A stretch of DNA of 7,991 nucleotides, taken from the IMG/VR virus record IMGVR_UViG_3300011226_000007, one strand, 5' to 3'. Position 1 is the first letter of the stretch. Each line of letters begins with the position of its first letter. A model generated the notes under the pieces. It did not search any database. It saw only the letters and a program-made list of their open reading frames with translations, and was not told the origin of the DNA. This DNA comes from a virus (Duplodnaviria; Heunggongvirae; Uroviricota; Caudoviricetes). A program made the translations under genes and the position numbers. This document shows positions 1 through 7,991 of the stretch, piece by piece.

Positions 1-127
1 CATATTCACGACGAGCAATGCGGCTACCCTGCGGCGTCAGCAGAATGTCCCGCACCGACTGGCGCAGATGGTCAATATCAGTAATAACTTTGCCGTTGGT
101 ATTGTTCATCCCGCTATAAAGCGTCAT
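1..127 (-). CDS. W: Baseplate assembly protein W (gp25/GPW-like), 5' part only; 3' end lies beyond the window start
   Basis: Not in the ORF track because it runs off the edge. Reverse-complement of 1..127 reads ATG at 127..125 then MTLYSGMNNTNGKVITDIDHLRQSVRDILLTPQGSRIARREY..., which resembles the P2 gpW N-terminus. Its ATG overlaps the V stop (ATGA). Confidence 0.75.
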   Translation of the reverse strand, partial: MTLYSGMNNTNGKVITDIDHLRQSVRDILLTPQGSRIARREY

Positions 128-702
128 ACCGGGCCTCCGGTTGTATCGCCGCCTTTCAGGACGCCAGTATGCTGATGCGCATCAACCACGATCCCGTTAG
201 AACTCATCGCTCCGCCGCCCTGGGTAACGCCACCATTGATCACCACTTCGCTGTCAATGCGCGTGCGGTCAGCCTCCAGTACAAACTCACTGGTTTTCAT
301 GGTGATGTTGTCAGCGGCCTCAATGACCATTGATTTGATGCCCCTGACATACCAGCGCCCGGTGGCGGGTTCGTATTCAAACCAGCCACCGTCAGGATGT
401 TCTGTCACGCAGGCGTCCGCCGACGTCGACGGTGGTGCGAACTGATTCGAATAGATGGCGGGTAACGCAAAGGCGGTTTCCAGATTGCCGCCCAGACTCA
501 GCAGCACCACCTGCTCACCTTCCGATGGTCGCCACCATGTCCGGGCATTCCCGGCACGCAGGGTCAGCCAGCTGATCCAGTTGGTTTCTAAGTCGCCTGT
601 TTTCACCCGGCAAAGCCAGTTCTCTCGGTCCACTTCGGTCACGATGCCGGTGCGGATCAGGTTGGTGATAAGGCGCATGATTTCGGTTAATTGTACGTTC
701 AC
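124..702 (-). CDS. V: Baseplate assembly / tail spike protein V
   Basis: 192 aa ORF; sequence MNVQLTEIMRLITNLIRTGIVTEVD...HQHTGVLKGGDTTGGPV resembles P2 gpV over its whole length (recall, not a search). Start is GTG at 702 preceded by purine-rich RBS AAGGGGGGAAGG (reverse-complement of about 705..716). Stop TGA overlaps the W start. Confidence 0.9.
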   Translation of the reverse strand: MNVQLTEIMRLITNLIRTGIVTEVDRENWLCRVKTGDLETNWISWLTLRAGNARTWWRPSEGEQVVLLSLGGNLETAFALPAIYSNQFAPPSTSADACVTEHPDGGWFEYEPATGRWYVRGIKSMVIEAADNITMKTSEFVLEADRTRIDSEVVINGGVTQGGGAMSSNGIVVDAHQHTGVLKGGDTTGGPV

Positions 703-739
703 CCTTCCCCCCTTAAAGATGAACTGTATCTCAATAAGT

Positions 740-748
740 TGTATTATT
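740..748 (+). promoter_or_regulatory. Possible sigma70-type -10 element (TG-TATTAT) for the cargo operon
   Basis: AT-rich 87 bp divergent intergenic region 703..789; TATTAT at 742..747 preceded by TG at 740..741; no convincing -35. About 40 nt upstream of the ATPase ATG at 790. Weak, sequence-only guess. Confidence 0.2.
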
Positions 749-762
749 ATCAGTGTTGTAGT

Positions 763-780
763 TGTACTGTTAACGACACA
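763..780. promoter_or_regulatory. TGT-N12-ACA dyad, candidate Ogr/Delta-type late activator site (putative P_V late promoter element)
   Basis: TGTactgttaacgacACA at 763..780 is the only exact TGT-N12-ACA in the V upstream region. P2 late promoters (P_P, P_O, P_V, P_F) carry this dyad centred near -55. Centred here at about 771.5, which would put the TSS near 717, very close to the V RBS, so spacing is tight. Confidence 0.3.
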
Positions 781-789
781 AGGGAATAT

Positions 790-2019
790 ATGCTTACATC
801 AATAAATGAAATTCATGCTCCAATTCCATACACTAATAAGACAGCAAACTTATTTCTTGAGGGTAAAAATCTCATAATAACTGGTGGTAACGGGTGTGGA
901 AAAACTAGTTTCATTAGATCTATTTATGATTTCCTTAAAAGTAAGATAGATACACCTAATGATCATAATATTAATAATTTATACAGTACGTTAGAGTCCT
1001 ACAAATATCAATTGAATAGCGACGGGCGTGACGGCTTTAATTACGACTTTTATTCTGAAGAAATAAAAAAGATTGAATTAAAAATTGAACAATTAAAAGC
1101 CATTAGAATAGAAACAAAAGAAAAAGAAGGTGAAATTCGTTCACTATTGAGATTTCACAAAGCTCTACGTGAAGCATCAATTACCTCGCCAGTCGCCGTT
1201 CCTAGGCTATCAGCTTTAATTAAAGAAAAGTCACATTTTTCTAATGAAGTAGATGGTGATGATTTCTTTGAGAATTATTTGGTTAGCTTAAAAACCGCTC
1301 AGAGCTATGCAATTTCTTTTGATAATGACCATAATAAAGCTCAGCGGATACAGGAATGGTTTGATAAAATTGAAACTGATATGCAGGAACTTTTTGAAGA
1401 TAAAAACCTCTTACTAACGTTTGATAGTAACGAAGGAAAATTTTATCTCAATCAAGATGGTAAAGATAAGTTTACTTTTCAAACATTATCTTCTGGCTAC
1501 TCATCAATATTGAGAATTTATGCTGACTTAATAATGAGAGTAGAGATGTGGGAGTTAACACCTGACAGTATCGAAGGTATTGTTTTTATTGATGAAATAG
1601 ATGCGCATTTACATGTTTCTTTGCAAAAGCAAATATTAAGATTTTTTAGTCACGCCTTTCCTAAAGTACAATTCATTGTGACTACACATTCTCCGTTTGT
1701 TGTTACATCCGTCACAAATGCCATCATTTATGATCTGTCGACCAACACGCAAATTAGTGATGTATCTTCATATTCTTACGGTATCATCCTTCAAGAGTTA
1801 TTTGGAGTAAGTCCAATATCTAAAGTTCTTTCAGATAAGTTAGAACAACTTCAAGATATTATTGATAATATTAACAACAACAATATTGAAACTGCCAATA
1901 ACATAATACAATCCTTAGCACCTTTAGATGAATCCATGGACATAAATGCAAGTGCATTTATTGACTATGCAAAAATGCAGGTTTTAAAATATAAAAAAGC
2001 AAATTCTCAGGAGAAATAA
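790..2019 (+). CDS. ABC-type ATPase (AAA_15/AAA_21-like) with coiled-coil insertion; Septu PtuA-like defence ATPase candidate
   Basis: Track ORF 691..2019; preferred start ATG 790 (RBS AAGGGA at 780..785), because the 691..789 extension overlaps the V start and its upstream region. Walker A TGGNGCGKTS at 883..909; K/E-rich coiled-coil segment (EEIKKIELKIEQLKAIRIETKEKEGEIRSLL); signature-like TLSSGYSS; Walker B plus D-loop IVFIDEIDAHLH at 1579..1614; H-loop FIVTTHSPF. About 30% GC. Stop TAA 2017..2019 overlaps the next ATG. Confidence 0.8.
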   Translation: MLTSINEIHAPIPYTNKTANLFLEGKNLIITGGNGCGKTSFIRSIYDFLKSKIDTPNDHNINNLYSTLESYKYQLNSDGRDGFNYDFYSEEIKKIELKIEQLKAIRIETKEKEGEIRSLLRFHKALREASITSPVAVPRLSALIKEKSHFSNEVDGDDFFENYLVSLKTAQSYAISFDNDHNKAQRIQEWFDKIETDMQELFEDKNLLLTFDSNEGKFYLNQDGKDKFTFQTLSSGYSSILRIYADLIMRVEMWELTPDSIEGIVFIDEIDAHLHVSLQKQILRFFSHAFPKVQFIVTTHSPFVVTSVTNAIIYDLSTNTQISDVSSYSYGIILQELFGVSPISKVLSDKLEQLQDIIDNINNNNIETANNIIQSLAPLDESMDINASAFIDYAKMQVLKYKKANSQEK

Positions 2020-2680
2020 TGTTCAAGGTTAATAGAACATATCCTGCACCAAAGTCGCTTTCCAAGAAAGTACGTTATGACGGTGCTGATGTACATGAAG
2101 CACTACAGGAATGCTTTTATGGAAAATGTTACATTTGCGAAACAAAGAACCCTTTGGATATAAACATTGAACATTTTAAACCCAAGGGTGATGATGTGGA
2201 AAGAGCTTTTGATTGGGATAATTTATATCTATCATGTTCCAGATGTAACAATATAAAACTATCAAAATATGACAACATTCTTGANNNNNNNNNNGCTGTA
2301 AAGAAAAGGTATGGGATCGAGTAAAATTACTCCCAGGATATTCTTATAAAGCAAAAAAAATAACAGTAACAGCACTATTTAATGATATTGAAACGCAGAC
2401 GACCGCAGAGTTACTTGAGAAAGTATATAATAGCGATCATACCATGAGTAAAAAATTAACTTCTGCGGCACTTCGTACTCAAGTAGTGAAAACAACCCAA
2501 AAACTAATAAAAAATATTAATGAATATTATGAAGAAGATACTCCAACAGAACAAAAAAAATACTTAATTGAAAAAATGAAGATGATGATAAAAAGAGACG
2601 CAGCTTTTTCATCATTTTGCAGATGGATCATTATGGAAGATGCTGAATTAGGTCCAATTCTTGAACCATTTATGGATTAG
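2019..2680 (+). CDS. HNH-family nuclease (Septu PtuB-like candidate); single gene split in the track by a frame-breaking 10-N run
   Basis: ATG 2019 with RBS AGGAG at 2009..2013. HNH motifs: CYIC at 2127..2138, EHFKPK (His at 2172..2174), CSRCNN at 2235..2252. The track frame stops 9 codons after the N run (2285..2294), but the +2 frame is stop-free from 2297 through the track ORF 2444..2680 (49 codons without a stop in 30%-GC DNA). So 2019..2324 and 2444..2680 are most likely one gene of about 220 aa. Stop TAG 2678..2680. Confidence 0.7.
2285..2294. other. N run (10 nt), unknown sequence inside the HNH gene
   Basis: Directly visible; flanking coding frames differ, so the true length is not 10. 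Confidence 1.
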
Positions 2681-2683
2681 TAG

Positions 2684-2718
2684 TAAAAAGCCGCCTTCTA
2701 AGAAGGCGGTATTGATTA
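2684..2718. terminator. Rho-independent terminator, likely bidirectional (stronger for minus-strand transcripts)
   Basis: Stem CCGCCTT (2691..2697) / AAGGCGG (2703..2709), extendable to 9 bp, with loop CTAAG. Minus-strand reading gives the hairpin followed by TTTTTACTA; plus-strand reading gives TATTGATTA. Sits immediately after the HNH stop and downstream of S. Confidence 0.5.
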
Positions 2719-2874
2719 CATCCTAAAAGGGCGCACCAAAACCTTTAAAAAGAATCCACTGCCAGTTTTGTAACATTTAAATTCAAAGGCAATAAGGTAG
2801 AGCCAAAACCAGTTGATGATCACGCCCAAAGGACGTGGTTTTCAGTCAGCAATAAATGAAGTAGTCTAGTCACA

Positions 2875-3324
2875 TTATTTTATTAACAACTGAAACAATA
2901 TATCTTTTACTATATTTTCTGCATATTCATTCATTCCAAGTAAACGACGCTCTGCGTATCGTACTTCCGGTCCTTTGCGACTAACACGATCACGCAGGCC
3001 GTAATGGTGAACACGGGCAATACGCTGTACCTTACCTTCAAACTGCACGCTGGCAGAATCGGCGCTGGCGGCAGTTTTCAGGTATTTTGTGGTGCGAAGC
3101 TTTGTAAACATCTGACGTTTGATGCGCCCCTTTTTACTACGTGCTGTTACCCTTCGCGGTTCATAGCTGCTGNNNNNNNNNNNNNNNNNNNNNNNNNNNN
3201 NNNNNNNNNNNNNNNNNNNNNNNNNNNNNNNNNNNNNNNNNNNCATCATGCGACTTCTCGTGGCTGGTTCCAGATTCGCCAGCAAGGCACTCAACCAGTC
3301 GTCCACCTTCTGCAGTTCAGCCAC
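2875..3324 (-). CDS. S: Tail completion / virion morphogenesis protein S
   Basis: 149 aa ORF in the P2 gpS position (downstream of R) and of the expected size (P2 gpS about 150 aa); GTG start at 3324 overlaps the R stop (GTGGCTGA). Contains a 71-nt N run (3173..3243), so the internal sequence is unknown. Identification is by position, size and general family resemblance. Confidence 0.65.
   Translation of the reverse strand: MAELQKVDDWLSALLANLEPATRSRMMXXXXXXXXXXXXXXXXXXXXXXXXSSYEPRRVTARSKKGRIKRQMFTKLRTTKYLKTAASADSASVQFEGKVQRIARVHHYGLRDRVSRKGPEVRYAERRLLGMNEYAENIVKDILFQLLIK
3173..3243. other. N run (71 nt) inside gene S
   Basis: Directly visible. Confidence 1.
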
Positions 3325-4272: not shown

Positions 4273-4715
4273 AGTCCAGCTCCTTTAAGGCACCAGGCCA
4301 TCTCCCGCGCACGGCGGTTATCCAGCCCCTGATTAAAAACACCTTTCACATAAACCCAGCGCGGCAACTGTCGGCACGCATCCGCCCAGCGCCGCTGATT
4401 GAGCAATTTCACCAGCGTGGAGCTGNNNNNNNNNNACCTTTCCAGCGCCCTCTCCACACGCAGCACGTTGGAGATCATCCCTTCCGCTGCCTGTCGTTCC
4501 GTAATGGTTTTGCCCGGGATGACGCCCGATGTATTACCAATGCCGTCGGTCCAGACACCCGCGCTGCACTGATACGGCTGCAGACGACAGCCTTCGTAAT
4601 CAGCAATCAGTTTCAGCCCCTCCACGGAGGTGTGAAGCTGCTGAAAACCCGGCAGCGTGGCAGTAATAGCCAGCACGGTCCCGACAAGGCAGCGTTTAAC
4701 GATTGATGGATTCAT
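4269..4715 (-). CDS. K: Endolysin, T4-lysozyme/GH24-like with N-terminal SAR (signal-anchor-release) segment
   Basis: 148 aa as read (10-N run at 4426..4435 inside); N-terminal hydrophobic stretch VKRCLVGTVLAITATLPGF; lysozyme motifs EGLKLIADYEGCRLQPYQ...GVWTDGIGNTSG resemble P22 gp19 / phage 21 R-type lysozymes. ATG 4715 with RBS GGGAGGA. Confidence 0.85.
   Translation of the reverse strand: MNPSIVKRCLVGTVLAITATLPGFQQLHTSVEGLKLIADYEGCRLQPYQCSAGVWTDGIGNTSGVIPGKTITERQAAEGMISNVLRVERALERXXXXSSTLVKLLNQRRWADACRQLPRWVYVKGVFNQGLDNRRAREMAWCLKGAGL
4426..4435. other. N run (10 nt) inside endolysin gene K
   Basis: Directly visible; lysozyme-like sequence continues in the same frame on both sides. Confidence 1.
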
Positions 4716-5675: not shown

Positions 5676-6304
5676 TTAGCGGCTGTCACTGCGCAATTTG
5701 CGCTCCAGCTGCTGCTTTTCTTTTTTCACGCCGCAGCGGGGATCGAGCTGCAGCGCANNNNNNNNNNGCTTTCACTCAGGACAGCGCCAATCGCTTTATG
5801 CAGACGCGCCCGTGACTGGTCCGGCATATCCAGACCGTCTGTCAGTTCCAGCGTCTGCAGCAACAGATCGGCATCAAAGCCGGTGGCGGCAAGCATTGCG
5901 CTCTGCGCGGCGTCTGCCATTTCCTCTGCCAGCACGGTCTGCACGTTGCGGTTACCCAGCGGCATCACCCAGCCATGACGCAGGGCATGACGCCCGATCT
6001 CCAGCGCCCCGGCATAATCTCCGGCATCAATGCGCCACAGCATCACGTACATCAGCACGTCATCCTGTTGAGCGCCTCCGGCAGCCAGGACACCCTCCGC
6101 CCAGGCGGCGTACTTCGGCAGCAACTCCACTTTGATTTCCGCTTTTTTGACCGTGGACTGAACGCCCTTGAGACGGCGTCGGTCTTCCGCTAGTTGCAGC
6201 AGCATCAGGTCATAGCCCGACGCGTGGCGAACGCTGCCGCCCTCGCGGGCGGCCTGTTCAGCCTGAACGCTCAGGCGATGCTGCCGTGCGGGACTCAGGC
6301 TCAT
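5676..6304 (-). CDS. M: Terminase small (endonuclease) subunit M, interrupted by a frame-breaking N run
   Basis: N-terminal 176 aa (MSLSPARQHRL...LHKAIGAVLSES) resembles P2 gpM. After the 10-N run (5758..5767) the track frame stops at 5726, but a different frame reads LDPRCGVKKEKQQLERKLRSDSR then TAA at 5678..5676, resembling the gpM C-terminal region. So the true end is 5676 and the N run is not a 1:1 mask. ATG 6304 with RBS GGAGCG inside the end of N. Confidence 0.85.
5758..5767. other. N run (10 nt) inside terminase gene M
   Basis: Directly visible; frame-breaking (see M). Confidence 1.
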
Positions 6305-7413: not shown

Positions 7414-7991
7414 TTACCGCCTGNNNNNNNNNNNNNNNNNNNNNNNNNNNNNNNNNNNNNNNNNNNNNNNNNNNNNNNNNNNNNNNNNNNNNNNNNNNNN
7501 NNNNNNNNNNNNNNNNNNNNNNNNNNNNNNNNNNNNNNNNNNNNNNNNNNNNNNNNNNNNNNNNNNNNNNNNNNCACGCTGGCGGTAGTCCTGGCGGCTG
7601 TCTTCATGACTCAGCTTATTCACCAGTTCGTTAAAGGCGGTCTGCTGTGCCTGCAGGGCAGTCTCCAGCTCAGACAGACGTTCTTCCTGCTCAGACAGGG
7701 ATTTTTCGGTGCGTCCGCTCAGGTTCTGCTGCTCAGTGGCGACCAGCTCCACGGCCTTATGCACATCAGAGAACCGGGCATCGTCTGACTGCTCTTTTTT
7801 GGTGAACAGCGCCGTGACGCGGGCAAACAGGGACGGTTTGTCGTCCTGGACTTCTTCCAGTTCGATCACCGTTTCCTCTGCGGCGGTAAAGAGATTGGCG
7901 GGATTCTGCTTGCGGTTTGCCAGCGGGTTATGGGCTGCACTGGCGCTGAATGTCAGCATTTCCGTACCCAGACTGGCGGGGTCATCAATGG
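7414..7991 (-). CDS. O: Capsid scaffolding protein O, partial: N-terminus beyond window end, C-terminus obscured by a 151-N run
   Basis: Track ORF 7414..7959 begins at an internal Met; the frame stays open upstream to the window edge (...IDDPASLGTEMLTFSASAAHNPLANRKQNPANLF...), resembling the middle of P2 gpO. N run at 7424..7574 covers the 3' part, so the stop at 7414 is provisional. Confidence 0.8.
   Translation of the reverse strand, partial: IDDPASLGTEMLTFSASAAHNPLANRKQNPANLFTAAEETVIELEEVQDDKPSLFARVTALFTKKEQSDDARFSDVHKAVELVATEQQNLSGRTEKSLSEQEERLSELETALQAQQTAFNELVNKLSHEDSRQDYRQRXXXXXXXXXXXXXXXXXXXXXXXXXXXXXXXXXXXXXXXXXXXXXXXXXXXRR
7424..7574. other. N run (151 nt) covering the 3' part of gene O
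   Basis: Directly visible. Confidence 1.

What the first reader, a model, noticed from the sequence alone, without database searches (positions are those of the whole stretch)
703..789. An 87 bp divergent region must hold both the V-W late promoter and the cargo promoter
V (minus strand) and the ATPase (plus strand) are transcribed divergently from this AT-rich segment. It contains one exact TGT-N12-ACA dyad (763..780), the motif bound by Ogr-type late activators in P2-like phages, and a weak TG-TATTAT -10-like element (740..747) facing the cargo. If both are real, cargo transcription would start inside or next to the late-activator site, so late-gene activation and defence expression could interfere with each other. 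Spacing of the dyad to the V start is tighter than the canonical -55 geometry, so this is speculative.
Basis: inference. Interest (0 to 1): 0.45.

Follow-up and report, generated by a model that had tools for sequence, protein, structure and literature searches.

The report
P2-type late promoter sharing space with Septu promoter
The 87-bp gap between a P2-like prophage's baseplate gene V and a Septu defence operon holds the phage's known type of late promoter, in a rarer form with a short leader, and very probably the defence operon's own overlapping promoter, so this is a tidy variant of known biology, not a new mechanism.

Summary
Positions 703-789 are the 87-bp, 36% GC gap between V (minus strand, GTG at 702) and ptuA (plus strand, ATG at 790). 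The gap holds one exact TGT-N12-ACA (763-780) and a TATTAT hexamer (742-747).

The bare motif is not above chance (3 found, 2.1 expected). Comparison settles it. In 53 distinct V-upstream sequences, 29 of them unrelated in the spacer, an exact dyad is centred 54.5-57.5 bp from the A of the V ATG. P2's record places the V transcription start on that base.

The window differs in one respect. Its dyad is 69.5 bp from a GTG start, and the extra 14 nt carry a Shine-Dalgarno. Its -10 (TACAGT, 728-723) puts the predicted start at about 716, which is 55.5 bp from the dyad centre.

All 14 Septu-linked variants share this leadered form. They also share an AT-rich hexamer 15-16 bp before the dyad. This is the best cargo -10, with a predicted start near 754, 38 bp back-to-back with P_V.

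Mutual exclusion of the two promoters is inferred, not shown. I rate this a new variant of a known kind, of modest interest.

The parts
124..702 (-). Gene V (baseplate spike), 192 aa, GTG start at 702-700
   Evidence: ORF list. Pfam Phage_base_V plus the GpV Apex motif. Annotated identically in the sister prophage. The N-terminus MN.QLTEI is conserved in all relatives.
707..714 (-). Shine-Dalgarno for V (AAGGGGGG, read 714 to 707), inside the predicted 14-nt leader
   Evidence: Read from the sequence. An SD-like element is present in the 13-18 nt leaders of the Septu-linked variants; the printed sequences include GGAG, GAGG, AGGA, AAGG and GGGG cores. It is present in only 1 of 53 leaderless-geometry relatives.
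715..717 (-). Predicted P_V transcription start (about 716), 55.5 bp from the dyad centre and 14 nt before the GTG
   Evidence: Inferred from the -10 position and the family rule: A at -11 and T at -7 in 26 of 29 non-redundant relatives when anchored 55.5 bp from the dyad centre. Not mapped experimentally.
723..728 (-). P_V -10 hexamer TACAGT (read 728 to 723); it is TATAGT in most Septu-linked relatives
   Evidence: It places the start 54.5-55.5 bp from the dyad centre in 13 of 14 Septu-linked variants.
763..780 (.). Late-activator (Ogr/B/delta-type) binding dyad TGTACTGTTAACGACACA; on the V strand it reads TGTGTCGTTAACAGTACA
   Evidence: Exact match. Position conserved across relatives. Shares TGTGT...GTACA arms with the sister prophage's P_F and P_O/P_P dyads. 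P2's record annotates the homologous activator site.
719..724 (+). Candidate -35 of the cargo promoter (ATGAAC, 3 of 6 matches), overlapping the P_V -10 by 2 bp
   Evidence: PWM scan and alignment. It is weak. L127 has TTGACT at the equivalent place.
742..747 (+). Candidate -10 of the cargo (ptuAB) promoter, TATTAT
   Evidence: An AT-rich hexamer (TATATT, TATTAT or TATAAA) sits 15-16 bp before the dyad in all 14 Septu-linked variants, while the flanking spacer is not conserved. It belongs to the top-scoring cargo-direction candidate in 13 of 14.
753..755 (+). Predicted cargo transcription start (about 754), giving a 36-nt leader that contains the dyad at about +10 to +27
   Evidence: Derived from the -10 position. 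Not mapped.
780..785 (+). Shine-Dalgarno of ptuA (AAGGGA), abutting the dyad
   Evidence: Read from the sequence. The block ACAAG(A/G)GGA...ATG is conserved in all variants.
790..2019 (+). ptuA (Septu AAA_15/AAA_21-type ATPase), 409 aa
   Evidence: PADLOC PtuA, E = 1.3e-139, full length. Pfam AAA_21 and AAA_15.
2019..2680 (+). ptuB (Septu HNH nuclease). It appears split only because of a 10-N run at 2285-2294
   Evidence: Both pieces match PADLOC PtuB. The sister locus has an intact 217-aa gene, and the N run replaces 2 nt.
2691..2709 (.). GC-rich palindromic hairpin, terminator-like, between ptuB and S
   Evidence: Terminator scan and the sequence.

Best explanation
Positions 703-789 are a compact two-way control region of a P2-like (Peduoviridae) prophage at the known S/V ('orf30') cargo site.

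Leftward it carries the late promoter P_V. The phage's Ogr-type zinc-finger activator binds the dyad at 763-780, centred 55.5 bp upstream of the predicted start near 716. By analogy with P2, it recruits sigma-70 RNA polymerase to the -10 TACAGT (728-723). In P2 and in almost all relatives the V mRNA starts at the A of the AUG. Here the transcript has a 14-nt leader with a Shine-Dalgarno and a GTG start codon.

Rightward it carries a weak sigma-70 promoter for the Septu operon ptuAB: -35 ATGAAC (719-724), -10 TATTAT (742-747), start near 754. The cargo transcript reads through the dyad. The two starts are about 38 bp apart, back to back, and their core elements interleave, so one polymerase should exclude the other. 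The cargo promoter would be free in the lysogen, where no Ogr is made. It would be occluded once Ogr and polymerase occupy P_V late in lytic growth.

Shown by sequence comparison: the dyad, its conserved placement, the -10 rule, the leadered/GTG variant, and the conserved cargo hexamer. Inferred: both start sites, Ogr binding, and mutual exclusion.
For: 1. P2's record annotates an activator site upstream of V, a V-operon start on the first base of the V ATG, and a divergent orf30.
2. 53 distinct V-upstream sequences have an exact TGT-N12-ACA centred 54.5-57.5 bp from the ATG. All 53 start with ATG and only 1 has an SD-like element.
3. Anchored 55.5 bp from the dyad centre, A(-11) and T(-7) each occur in 26 of 29 non-redundant variants. 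The window's A727 and T723 obey the same rule with a start at 716.
4. The 99%-identical sister prophage encodes an ogr/Delta-like protein. Its P_F and P_O/P_P dyads (TGTGTGAATAACGGTACA, TGTGTGGTTGTCGGTACA) share arms with the window's TGTGTCGTTAACAGTACA.
5. In 14 distinct Septu-V intergenic variants (PtuA 63-94% identical to the window; V 80-98% identical where measured, in L018, L030 and L002) the gap is 86-90 bp and the dyad is 68.5-72.5 bp from V. Each has an SD in the leader, and GTG starts occur only in this class.
6. The cargo -10 block is conserved while its flanks are not, and it is the top PWM hit in 13 of 14 variants.
7. PtuA homologues outside P2-like phages lack the dyad.
8. The ptuA SD abuts the dyad, so the cargo start must lie at or left of it.
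Against: No transcript ends were mapped; both start sites are predictions. The cargo promoter is weak by consensus: its -35 matches 3 of 6, and it fails the 9-of-12 criterion of the promoter scan, which found no plus-strand site between 500 and 1555. In the window itself a V-direction TTAACA-16-GATAAT (773-746) scores slightly higher than either proposed promoter. The AT-rich block reads as a -10 on both strands in the window. One distant variant (L137) lacks a good P_V -10 at the expected offset. The predicted +1 at 716 is a T, which is not a preferred initiating base. Many of the compared loci are related prophages, so the counts are not fully independent.
Confidence: 0.7

Rival explanations
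1. The dyad is a chance TGT-N12-ACA in AT-rich DNA, and the real P_V control element lies elsewhere.
For: The bare motif occurs 3 times in the window against 2.1 expected, and 2 further copies lie inside ptuB.
Against: An exact dyad sits at a fixed offset upstream of V in nearly all relatives despite unrelated flanks. Its arms match the sister prophage's other late-promoter dyads. P2 annotates the homologous site.
Confidence: 0.02
2. V is driven by an activator-independent sigma-70 promoter, TTAACA (773-768) - 16 bp - GATAAT (751-746). The start would be near 739 with a 37-nt leader, and the dyad would overlap its -35.
For: It matches 10 of 12 positions and is the best V-direction hit in the window.
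Against: It is not conserved. Most Septu-linked variants have only weak equivalents (TTGATA-16-GAATAT, CTGAAA-16-AAATAT) or none, whereas TATAGT at the 55.5-bp offset is conserved. About 10 such hits are expected by chance in this 2.5 kb. A constitutive baseplate promoter in a prophage is biologically implausible.
Confidence: 0.05
3. The conserved AT-rich block (742-750) belongs to P_V, for example as a -35-region or alpha-CTD/UP-like contact. The cargo would then be transcribed from elsewhere (antisense within V) or only weakly and sporadically.
For: The block lies at -26 to -34 of the predicted P_V. The cargo -35 is poor, and the promoter scan found no plus-strand site in 500-790.
Against: The 29 non-redundant leaderless P_V variants show no AT-rich element at that position, so P_V does not need one. 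In most variants the hexamer is a better -10 in the cargo direction (TATATT, with A2 and T6) than in the V direction. ptuA needs a promoter, and its SD abuts the dyad.
Confidence: 0.15
4. Both promoters are present but never meaningfully interfere. The cargo fires in the lysogen and P_V only late in lytic growth, so the overlap simply reflects compact packing at a recombination hotspot.
For: The same tight divergent layout occurs with most of the many unrelated cargo classes and with P2 orf30. This suggests a by-product of where cassettes are exchanged, with the boundary at the V start codon.
Against: Nothing here speaks directly against it. Occupancy overlap is a geometric inference only.
Confidence: 0.4

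Closest known systems
P2 late promoter P_V and the orf30-V divergent intergenic region (NC_001895)
   Same: Same genome position, between S/cargo and V-W-J-I-H-G. Divergent AT-rich cargo gene. A TGT...ACA activator site about 55-57 bp from the start. A sigma-70 -10 with a poor -35. An ogr-type activator gene in the phage.
   Different: P2's site is TGT-N11-ACA, and its annotated start is the A of the V ATG, so the mRNA is leaderless. The window has an exact N12 dyad, a predicted 14-nt leader with an SD, and a GTG start codon. The cargo is Septu rather than orf30.
P_V of close relatives (Escherichia phage Cartapus, Klebsiella phage 4LV2017 and about 950 E. coli prophages)
   Same: V is 96-98% identical (tblastn), and the dyad and -10 logic are the same.
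   Different: DNA homology stops at V's start codon (window 701). Their dyad is 55.5 bp from an ATG with no SD. The promoter spacer differs with each cargo class.
Shared-dyad divergent late promoters P_P/P_O of the same phage type
   Same: A single dyad lies in a short divergent intergenic region (L125 31405-31422), 55.5 bp from one ATG and 87.5 bp from the other.
   Different: There, both divergent promoters can use the activator. Here the cargo promoter starts on the V side of the dyad and reads through it, so the activator cannot serve it. A start 55.5 bp to the right would fall inside ptuA.
Back-to-back overlapping divergent promoters (e.g. Tn10 tetA/tetR, bioA/bioB); recalled from general knowledge, not tested here
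   Same: Two starts a few tens of bp apart with interleaved -10 and -35 elements, so occupancy is mutually exclusive.
   Different: Those pairs are co-regulated by one repressor. Here one partner depends on an activator and the other is presumed constitutive.

Membership tests
P2-family Ogr/B/delta-dependent late promoter | TGT-N12-ACA element of dyad symmetry | tested here: met
   Exact match at 763-780. The consensus is as cited in PMC3931495.
P2-family Ogr/B/delta-dependent late promoter | Dyad centred about 55 bp upstream of the transcription start | tested here: inconclusive
   The start is not mapped. The -10 TACAGT (A727, T723) sits at exactly the dyad-anchored offset seen in 26 of 29 non-redundant relatives, giving 55.5 bp. 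Confirmation needs 5' end mapping.
P2-family Ogr/B/delta-dependent late promoter | Sigma-70 -10-like hexamer with a poor -35 | tested here: met
   TACAGT, with only CTGATA at a 19-bp spacing as a -35.
P2-family Ogr/B/delta-dependent late promoter | Lies at the head of a late morphogenetic operon, homologous in position to P2 P_V | tested here: met
   Upstream of V-W-J-I in the sister prophage. P2's map matches.
P2-family Ogr/B/delta-dependent late promoter | The phage encodes a cognate Ogr/Delta zinc-finger activator | tested here: met
   Not in the window. The sister prophage, 99% identical over window 600-2900, carries an ogr/Delta-like gene (L125 10768-10986).
P2-family Ogr/B/delta-dependent late promoter | Transcription depends on the activator and on the RNA polymerase alpha C-terminal domain | not testable with these tools
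   Requires genetics or in vitro transcription.
Leaderless V mRNA (P2 type) | Transcription start coincides with the A of an AUG start codon, with no SD | tested here: not met
   GTG start, an SD-like AAGGGGGG, and a dyad and -10 displaced 14 bp upstream. In contrast, 53 of 53 leaderless-geometry relatives use ATG.
Septu defence system (cargo) | Adjacent PtuA ATPase and PtuB HNH nuclease genes | tested here: met
   PADLOC PtuA 1.3e-139; PtuB 2.6e-46 and 1.2e-25 for the two pieces. The 10-N run explains the split.
Sigma-70 promoter (cargo) | -35 and -10 hexamers 16-18 bp apart, matching the consensus | tested here: inconclusive
   ATGAAC-17-TATTAT matches 8 of 12. It fails the tool's threshold but is positionally conserved in 13 of 14 variants.

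The most novel reading that the evidence does not exclude
At the S/V hotspot the exchangeable cassette is not just the cargo. It runs up to V's start codon, so it includes the whole late promoter P_V. Each cargo family would then travel with, and co-evolve, its own version of the phage's baseplate promoter. The Septu family's version has converted V from a leaderless AUG gene to an SD-led one, sometimes GUG-initiated. It also places the Ogr site inside the Septu 5' leader, so Ogr could switch the nuclease-based defence off when the phage enters its own late phase.
Probability: 0.25. Interest if true: 0.55.

Novelty: new variant of a known kind. Interest (0 to 1): 0.3.

Why it matters
This result shows that the finding is mostly known P2 biology, correctly spotted, and it corrects the geometry.

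Two points go slightly beyond the textbook picture. First, the late promoter spacer, and here even the mode of translation initiation of V (leaderless AUG versus SD-led GUG/AUG), co-varies with the cargo class rather than with V. This implies that defence cassettes at this hotspot are swapped together with an essential phage promoter. Second, almost every cargo class must place its own promoter on top of P_V. That gives a simple, testable route by which a prophage could couple expression of a defence system to its lysogenic or lytic state.

If such coupling is real, it would matter for understanding how prophages avoid self-harm from nuclease defences. It would also matter for cloning hotspot cargos 'with native promoter', because such clones carry an Ogr site.

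Tried and rejected
- The bare motif count in the window is not significant, so I relied on comparison instead.
- The built-in sigma-70 scan found no plus-strand promoter in the gap. Its only hit there was a V-direction TTAACA-16-GATAAT, rejected as not conserved.
- I considered Ogr activating the cargo through the same dyad, as at P_P/P_O. Rejected: a start 55.5 bp to the right falls at about 827, inside ptuA.
- I considered ATG 678 as the true V start. Rejected: the upstream codons are conserved as coding (MN.QLTEI) in all relatives and in the RefSeq annotation.
- RNA structure in either predicted leader is no better than in shuffles (z = 0.62 and 0.99).
- Rfam returned no hit in the window.
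- The apparent ptuB split is an artefact of a 10-N run.
- Searches for mapped orf30 or cargo transcripts in P2 lysogens found nothing. The original P2/P4 late-promoter papers (PMC177091, PMC107552) are not held. The -55 geometry therefore rests on the P2 GenBank annotation and on my own knowledge of Christie & Calendar 1985.

Full report
**What the window is.** The window is a P2-like (Peduoviridae) prophage segment. It is about 96% identical to Escherichia phage Cartapus and to Klebsiella phages outside the cargo. Over window 600-2900 it is 99% identical to a prophage of E. coli DETEC-P881.

The minus strand carries W (part), V (124-702), then S, R, the lysis genes, and further genes on to the scaffold gene. 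Between V and S, on the plus strand, lies a 31% GC insert. It encodes a Septu system: PtuA at 790-2019 (PADLOC 1.3e-139) and PtuB at 2019-2680. PtuB looks split only because a 10-N run at 2285-2294 replaces 2 nt.

This S/V position is the 'orf30' locus. It is one of three long-recognised sites where P2-like phages carry foreign genes (PMC3091744). The occurrence of defence systems within the P2 tail genes is also noted in PMC13586616.

**Checking the observation.**
- an 87-bp gap (703-789) with GC 0.356;
- the exact dyad TGTACTGTTAACGACACA at 763-780;
- TGTATTAT at 740-747.

The bare motif alone means nothing. The window has 3 matches against 2.1 expected, and 77 of 200 shuffles do as well.

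**Is the dyad the P_V activator site?** P2's record (NC_001895) annotates three things: an activator-binding site upstream of V, a V-operon transcription start on the first base of the V ATG, and orf30 diverging from the same 83-bp gap. PMC4633059 lists a P2 gene among the few known E. coli leaderless mRNAs, citing Christie & Calendar 1985.

I collected about 120 loci that encode relatives of V. Of their distinct V-upstream sequences, 53 have an exact TGT-N12-ACA centred 54.5-57.5 bp (mostly 55.5) from the A of the V ATG. All 53 start with ATG, and only one has an SD-like element.

I reduced these to 29 variants whose dyad-to-ATG spacers are less than 60% identical. The base 11 positions upstream of the point 55.5 bp from the dyad centre is A in 26 of 29. 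The base 7 upstream is T in 26 of 29. These are the two key positions of a sigma-70 -10 hexamer. The start is therefore the A of the AUG across the clade, as in P2.

The sister prophage encodes an ogr/Delta-like zinc-finger protein. Its other late-promoter dyads are P_F TGTGTGAATAACGGTACA and P_O/P_P TGTGTGGTTGTCGGTACA. They share the TGTGT...GTACA arms with the window's site, which reads TGTGTCGTTAACAGTACA on the V strand. The dyad is therefore a genuine late-promoter operator.

**The geometry, corrected.** In the window the dyad centre (771.5) is 69.5 bp from V's first base. That is 14 bp farther than in relatives, not closer.

The hexamer TACAGT (728-723) has A727 and T723 exactly where the family rule puts A(-11) and T(-7) for a start at 716, which is 55.5 bp from the dyad centre. 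The 14 nt between 716 and the start codon read UUAAGGGGGGAAGG. This is a Shine-Dalgarno at a workable spacing. The start codon is GTG.

From general knowledge, leaderless translation needs AUG. A GUG start paired with an acquired SD-bearing leader is therefore internally consistent. A 14-bp shift of the dyad relative to an unchanged start would also put the activator on a different helical face. This again favours a moved start over a moved operator.

**The leadered form travels with Septu.** I searched with PtuA. Together with two loci from the V search, this gave 14 distinct Septu-V intergenic variants. They come from Escherichia, Scandinavium, Tatumella and uncultured sources. PtuA is 63-94% identical to the window's. 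V is 80-98% identical where measured (L018, L030, L002).

All 14 share the following features:
- The gap is 86-90 bp.
- The dyad is 68.5-72.5 bp from V's start.
- There is an SD in the 13-18 nt leader.
- In 13 of 14, a -10 (TATAGT, TACAGT or TAAAAT) gives a start 54.5-55.5 bp from the dyad centre.

GTG starts occur only in this class, in the window and L140, in L126, and in L127. PtuA homologues that are not next to a V gene have no dyad.

In about 950 other E. coli prophages, DNA homology to the window stops at position 701, which is V's start codon. Other cargo classes likewise keep their own spacer across different V backgrounds, for example L043 and L010. So the P_V spacer co-varies with the cargo, not with V.

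**The cargo promoter.** ptuA's Shine-Dalgarno (AAGGGA, 780-785) abuts the dyad. Its transcript must therefore begin at or to the left of the dyad.

The 14-variant alignment shows a clear footprint. The conserved blocks are:
- the complement of the V SD;
- TTTTTGATGAACT(A/G)TAT, which contains the P_V -10 and start region;
- an AT-rich hexamer (TATATT in most, TATTAT at 742-747 here, TATAAA in two);
- the dyad arms;
- the ptuA SD.

The spacer between the hexamer and the dyad is not conserved.

A simple PWM scan ranks the promoter that uses this hexamer first in the cargo direction in 13 of 14 variants. Its predicted start is 17.5-18.5 bp before the dyad centre, at window position about 754, giving a 36-nt leader. 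L127 has a near-consensus TTGACT-18-TATAAA there.

The 29 leaderless P_V variants have no AT-rich element at the matching position. P_V therefore does not require it.

There are caveats. The window's -35 (ATGAAC) matches only 3 of 6. The built-in scan did not call the site at all. In the window the block also reads as GATAAT on the V strand, which together with TTAACA inside the dyad forms a 10-of-12 match. That V-direction match is not conserved.

**How it most likely works.** P_V (start about 716, leftward) and P_ptuA (start about 754, rightward) are back to back, 38 bp apart. The cargo -35 overlaps the P_V -10 by 2 bp. The cargo -10 lies in P_V's -26 to -31 region.

A polymerase on one promoter should exclude a polymerase on the other. 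Ogr bound at the dyad would sit at about +10 to +27 of the cargo transcript.

In a lysogen no Ogr is made and P_V is silent, so the cargo promoter is unobstructed. Late in lytic growth, Ogr plus polymerase at P_V would occlude it. This last step is inference from geometry only.

The layout is generic. At this hotspot the empty site is 68 bp (S stop, then the dyad, then V). In most cargo classes (553-3810 bp inserts), and in P2 orf30, the first cargo gene diverges from V with its ATG 47-156 bp away.

**Verdict.** The region is a member of the known P2 late-promoter family in a leadered, SD/GTG variant linked to Septu cassettes. Interference between late activation and defence expression remains an untested but reasonable hypothesis. 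Interest is modest.

Noticed in passing
window 2285-2294, 3173-3243, 4426-4435, 5758-5767, 7424-7574: There are five runs of N (252 bases in all). The first makes ptuB look like two ORFs (2019-2324 and 2444-2680), and the second puts X residues into S. None touches 703-789.
   Followed up: yes
L123 1720-2372 (E. coli M7424; hits H35-H38): In four of the 13 E. coli genomes that carry this Septu cassette, ptuB is annotated as two CDS (an HNH piece plus a hypothetical protein). This suggests a genuinely disrupted nuclease gene there.
   Followed up: no
L125 31405-31422 (sister prophage P/O intergenic region): A single exact dyad serves the divergent terminase (P) and scaffold (O) genes. It is 55.5 bp from the P ATG, which is the same leaderless-type geometry as V in relatives, and 87.5 bp from the O ATG.
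   Followed up: partly
L003 3244-3260 (phage P2): P2's own P_V site reads TGT-N11-ACA (TGTCTGGTAGTTCTACA), centred 57 bp from the annotated start. The type phage therefore departs from the exact N12 consensus that nearly all relatives keep.
   Followed up: partly
loci L004-L121, region upstream of V: The S/V site is a rich hotspot. The empty site is 68 bp, and the dyad-to-V spacers of the non-redundant set fall into 29 classes of unrelated sequence; inserts are 553-3810 bp, and nearly all have a first gene divergent from V. The P_V spacer differs by cargo class.
   Followed up: partly
L025, L036-L038, L041: A few more distant V homologues (Erwinia, Pantoea, Photorhabdus) have no dyad at the usual offset upstream of V. 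V may not head an operon in those elements.
   Followed up: no
window 2691-2709: A perfect GC-rich palindrome (GCCGCCTTCTAAGAAGGCGG region) lies just after ptuB and 166 nt beyond the S stop codon. It has a T-run on the minus strand and is probably a shared or bidirectional terminator.
   Followed up: no
window 746-773, minus strand: A sigma-70-like TTAACA-16-GATAAT (10 of 12 matches) points toward V, with its -35 inside the dyad. It is the best consensus match in the gap but is not conserved in other Septu-linked variants.
   Followed up: yes
L140 (metagenome contig OIEU01001570.1): The PtuA of this metagenome contig is 100% identical to the window's, and its intergenic region is identical too. 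It may be the same or a sister source.
   Followed up: no
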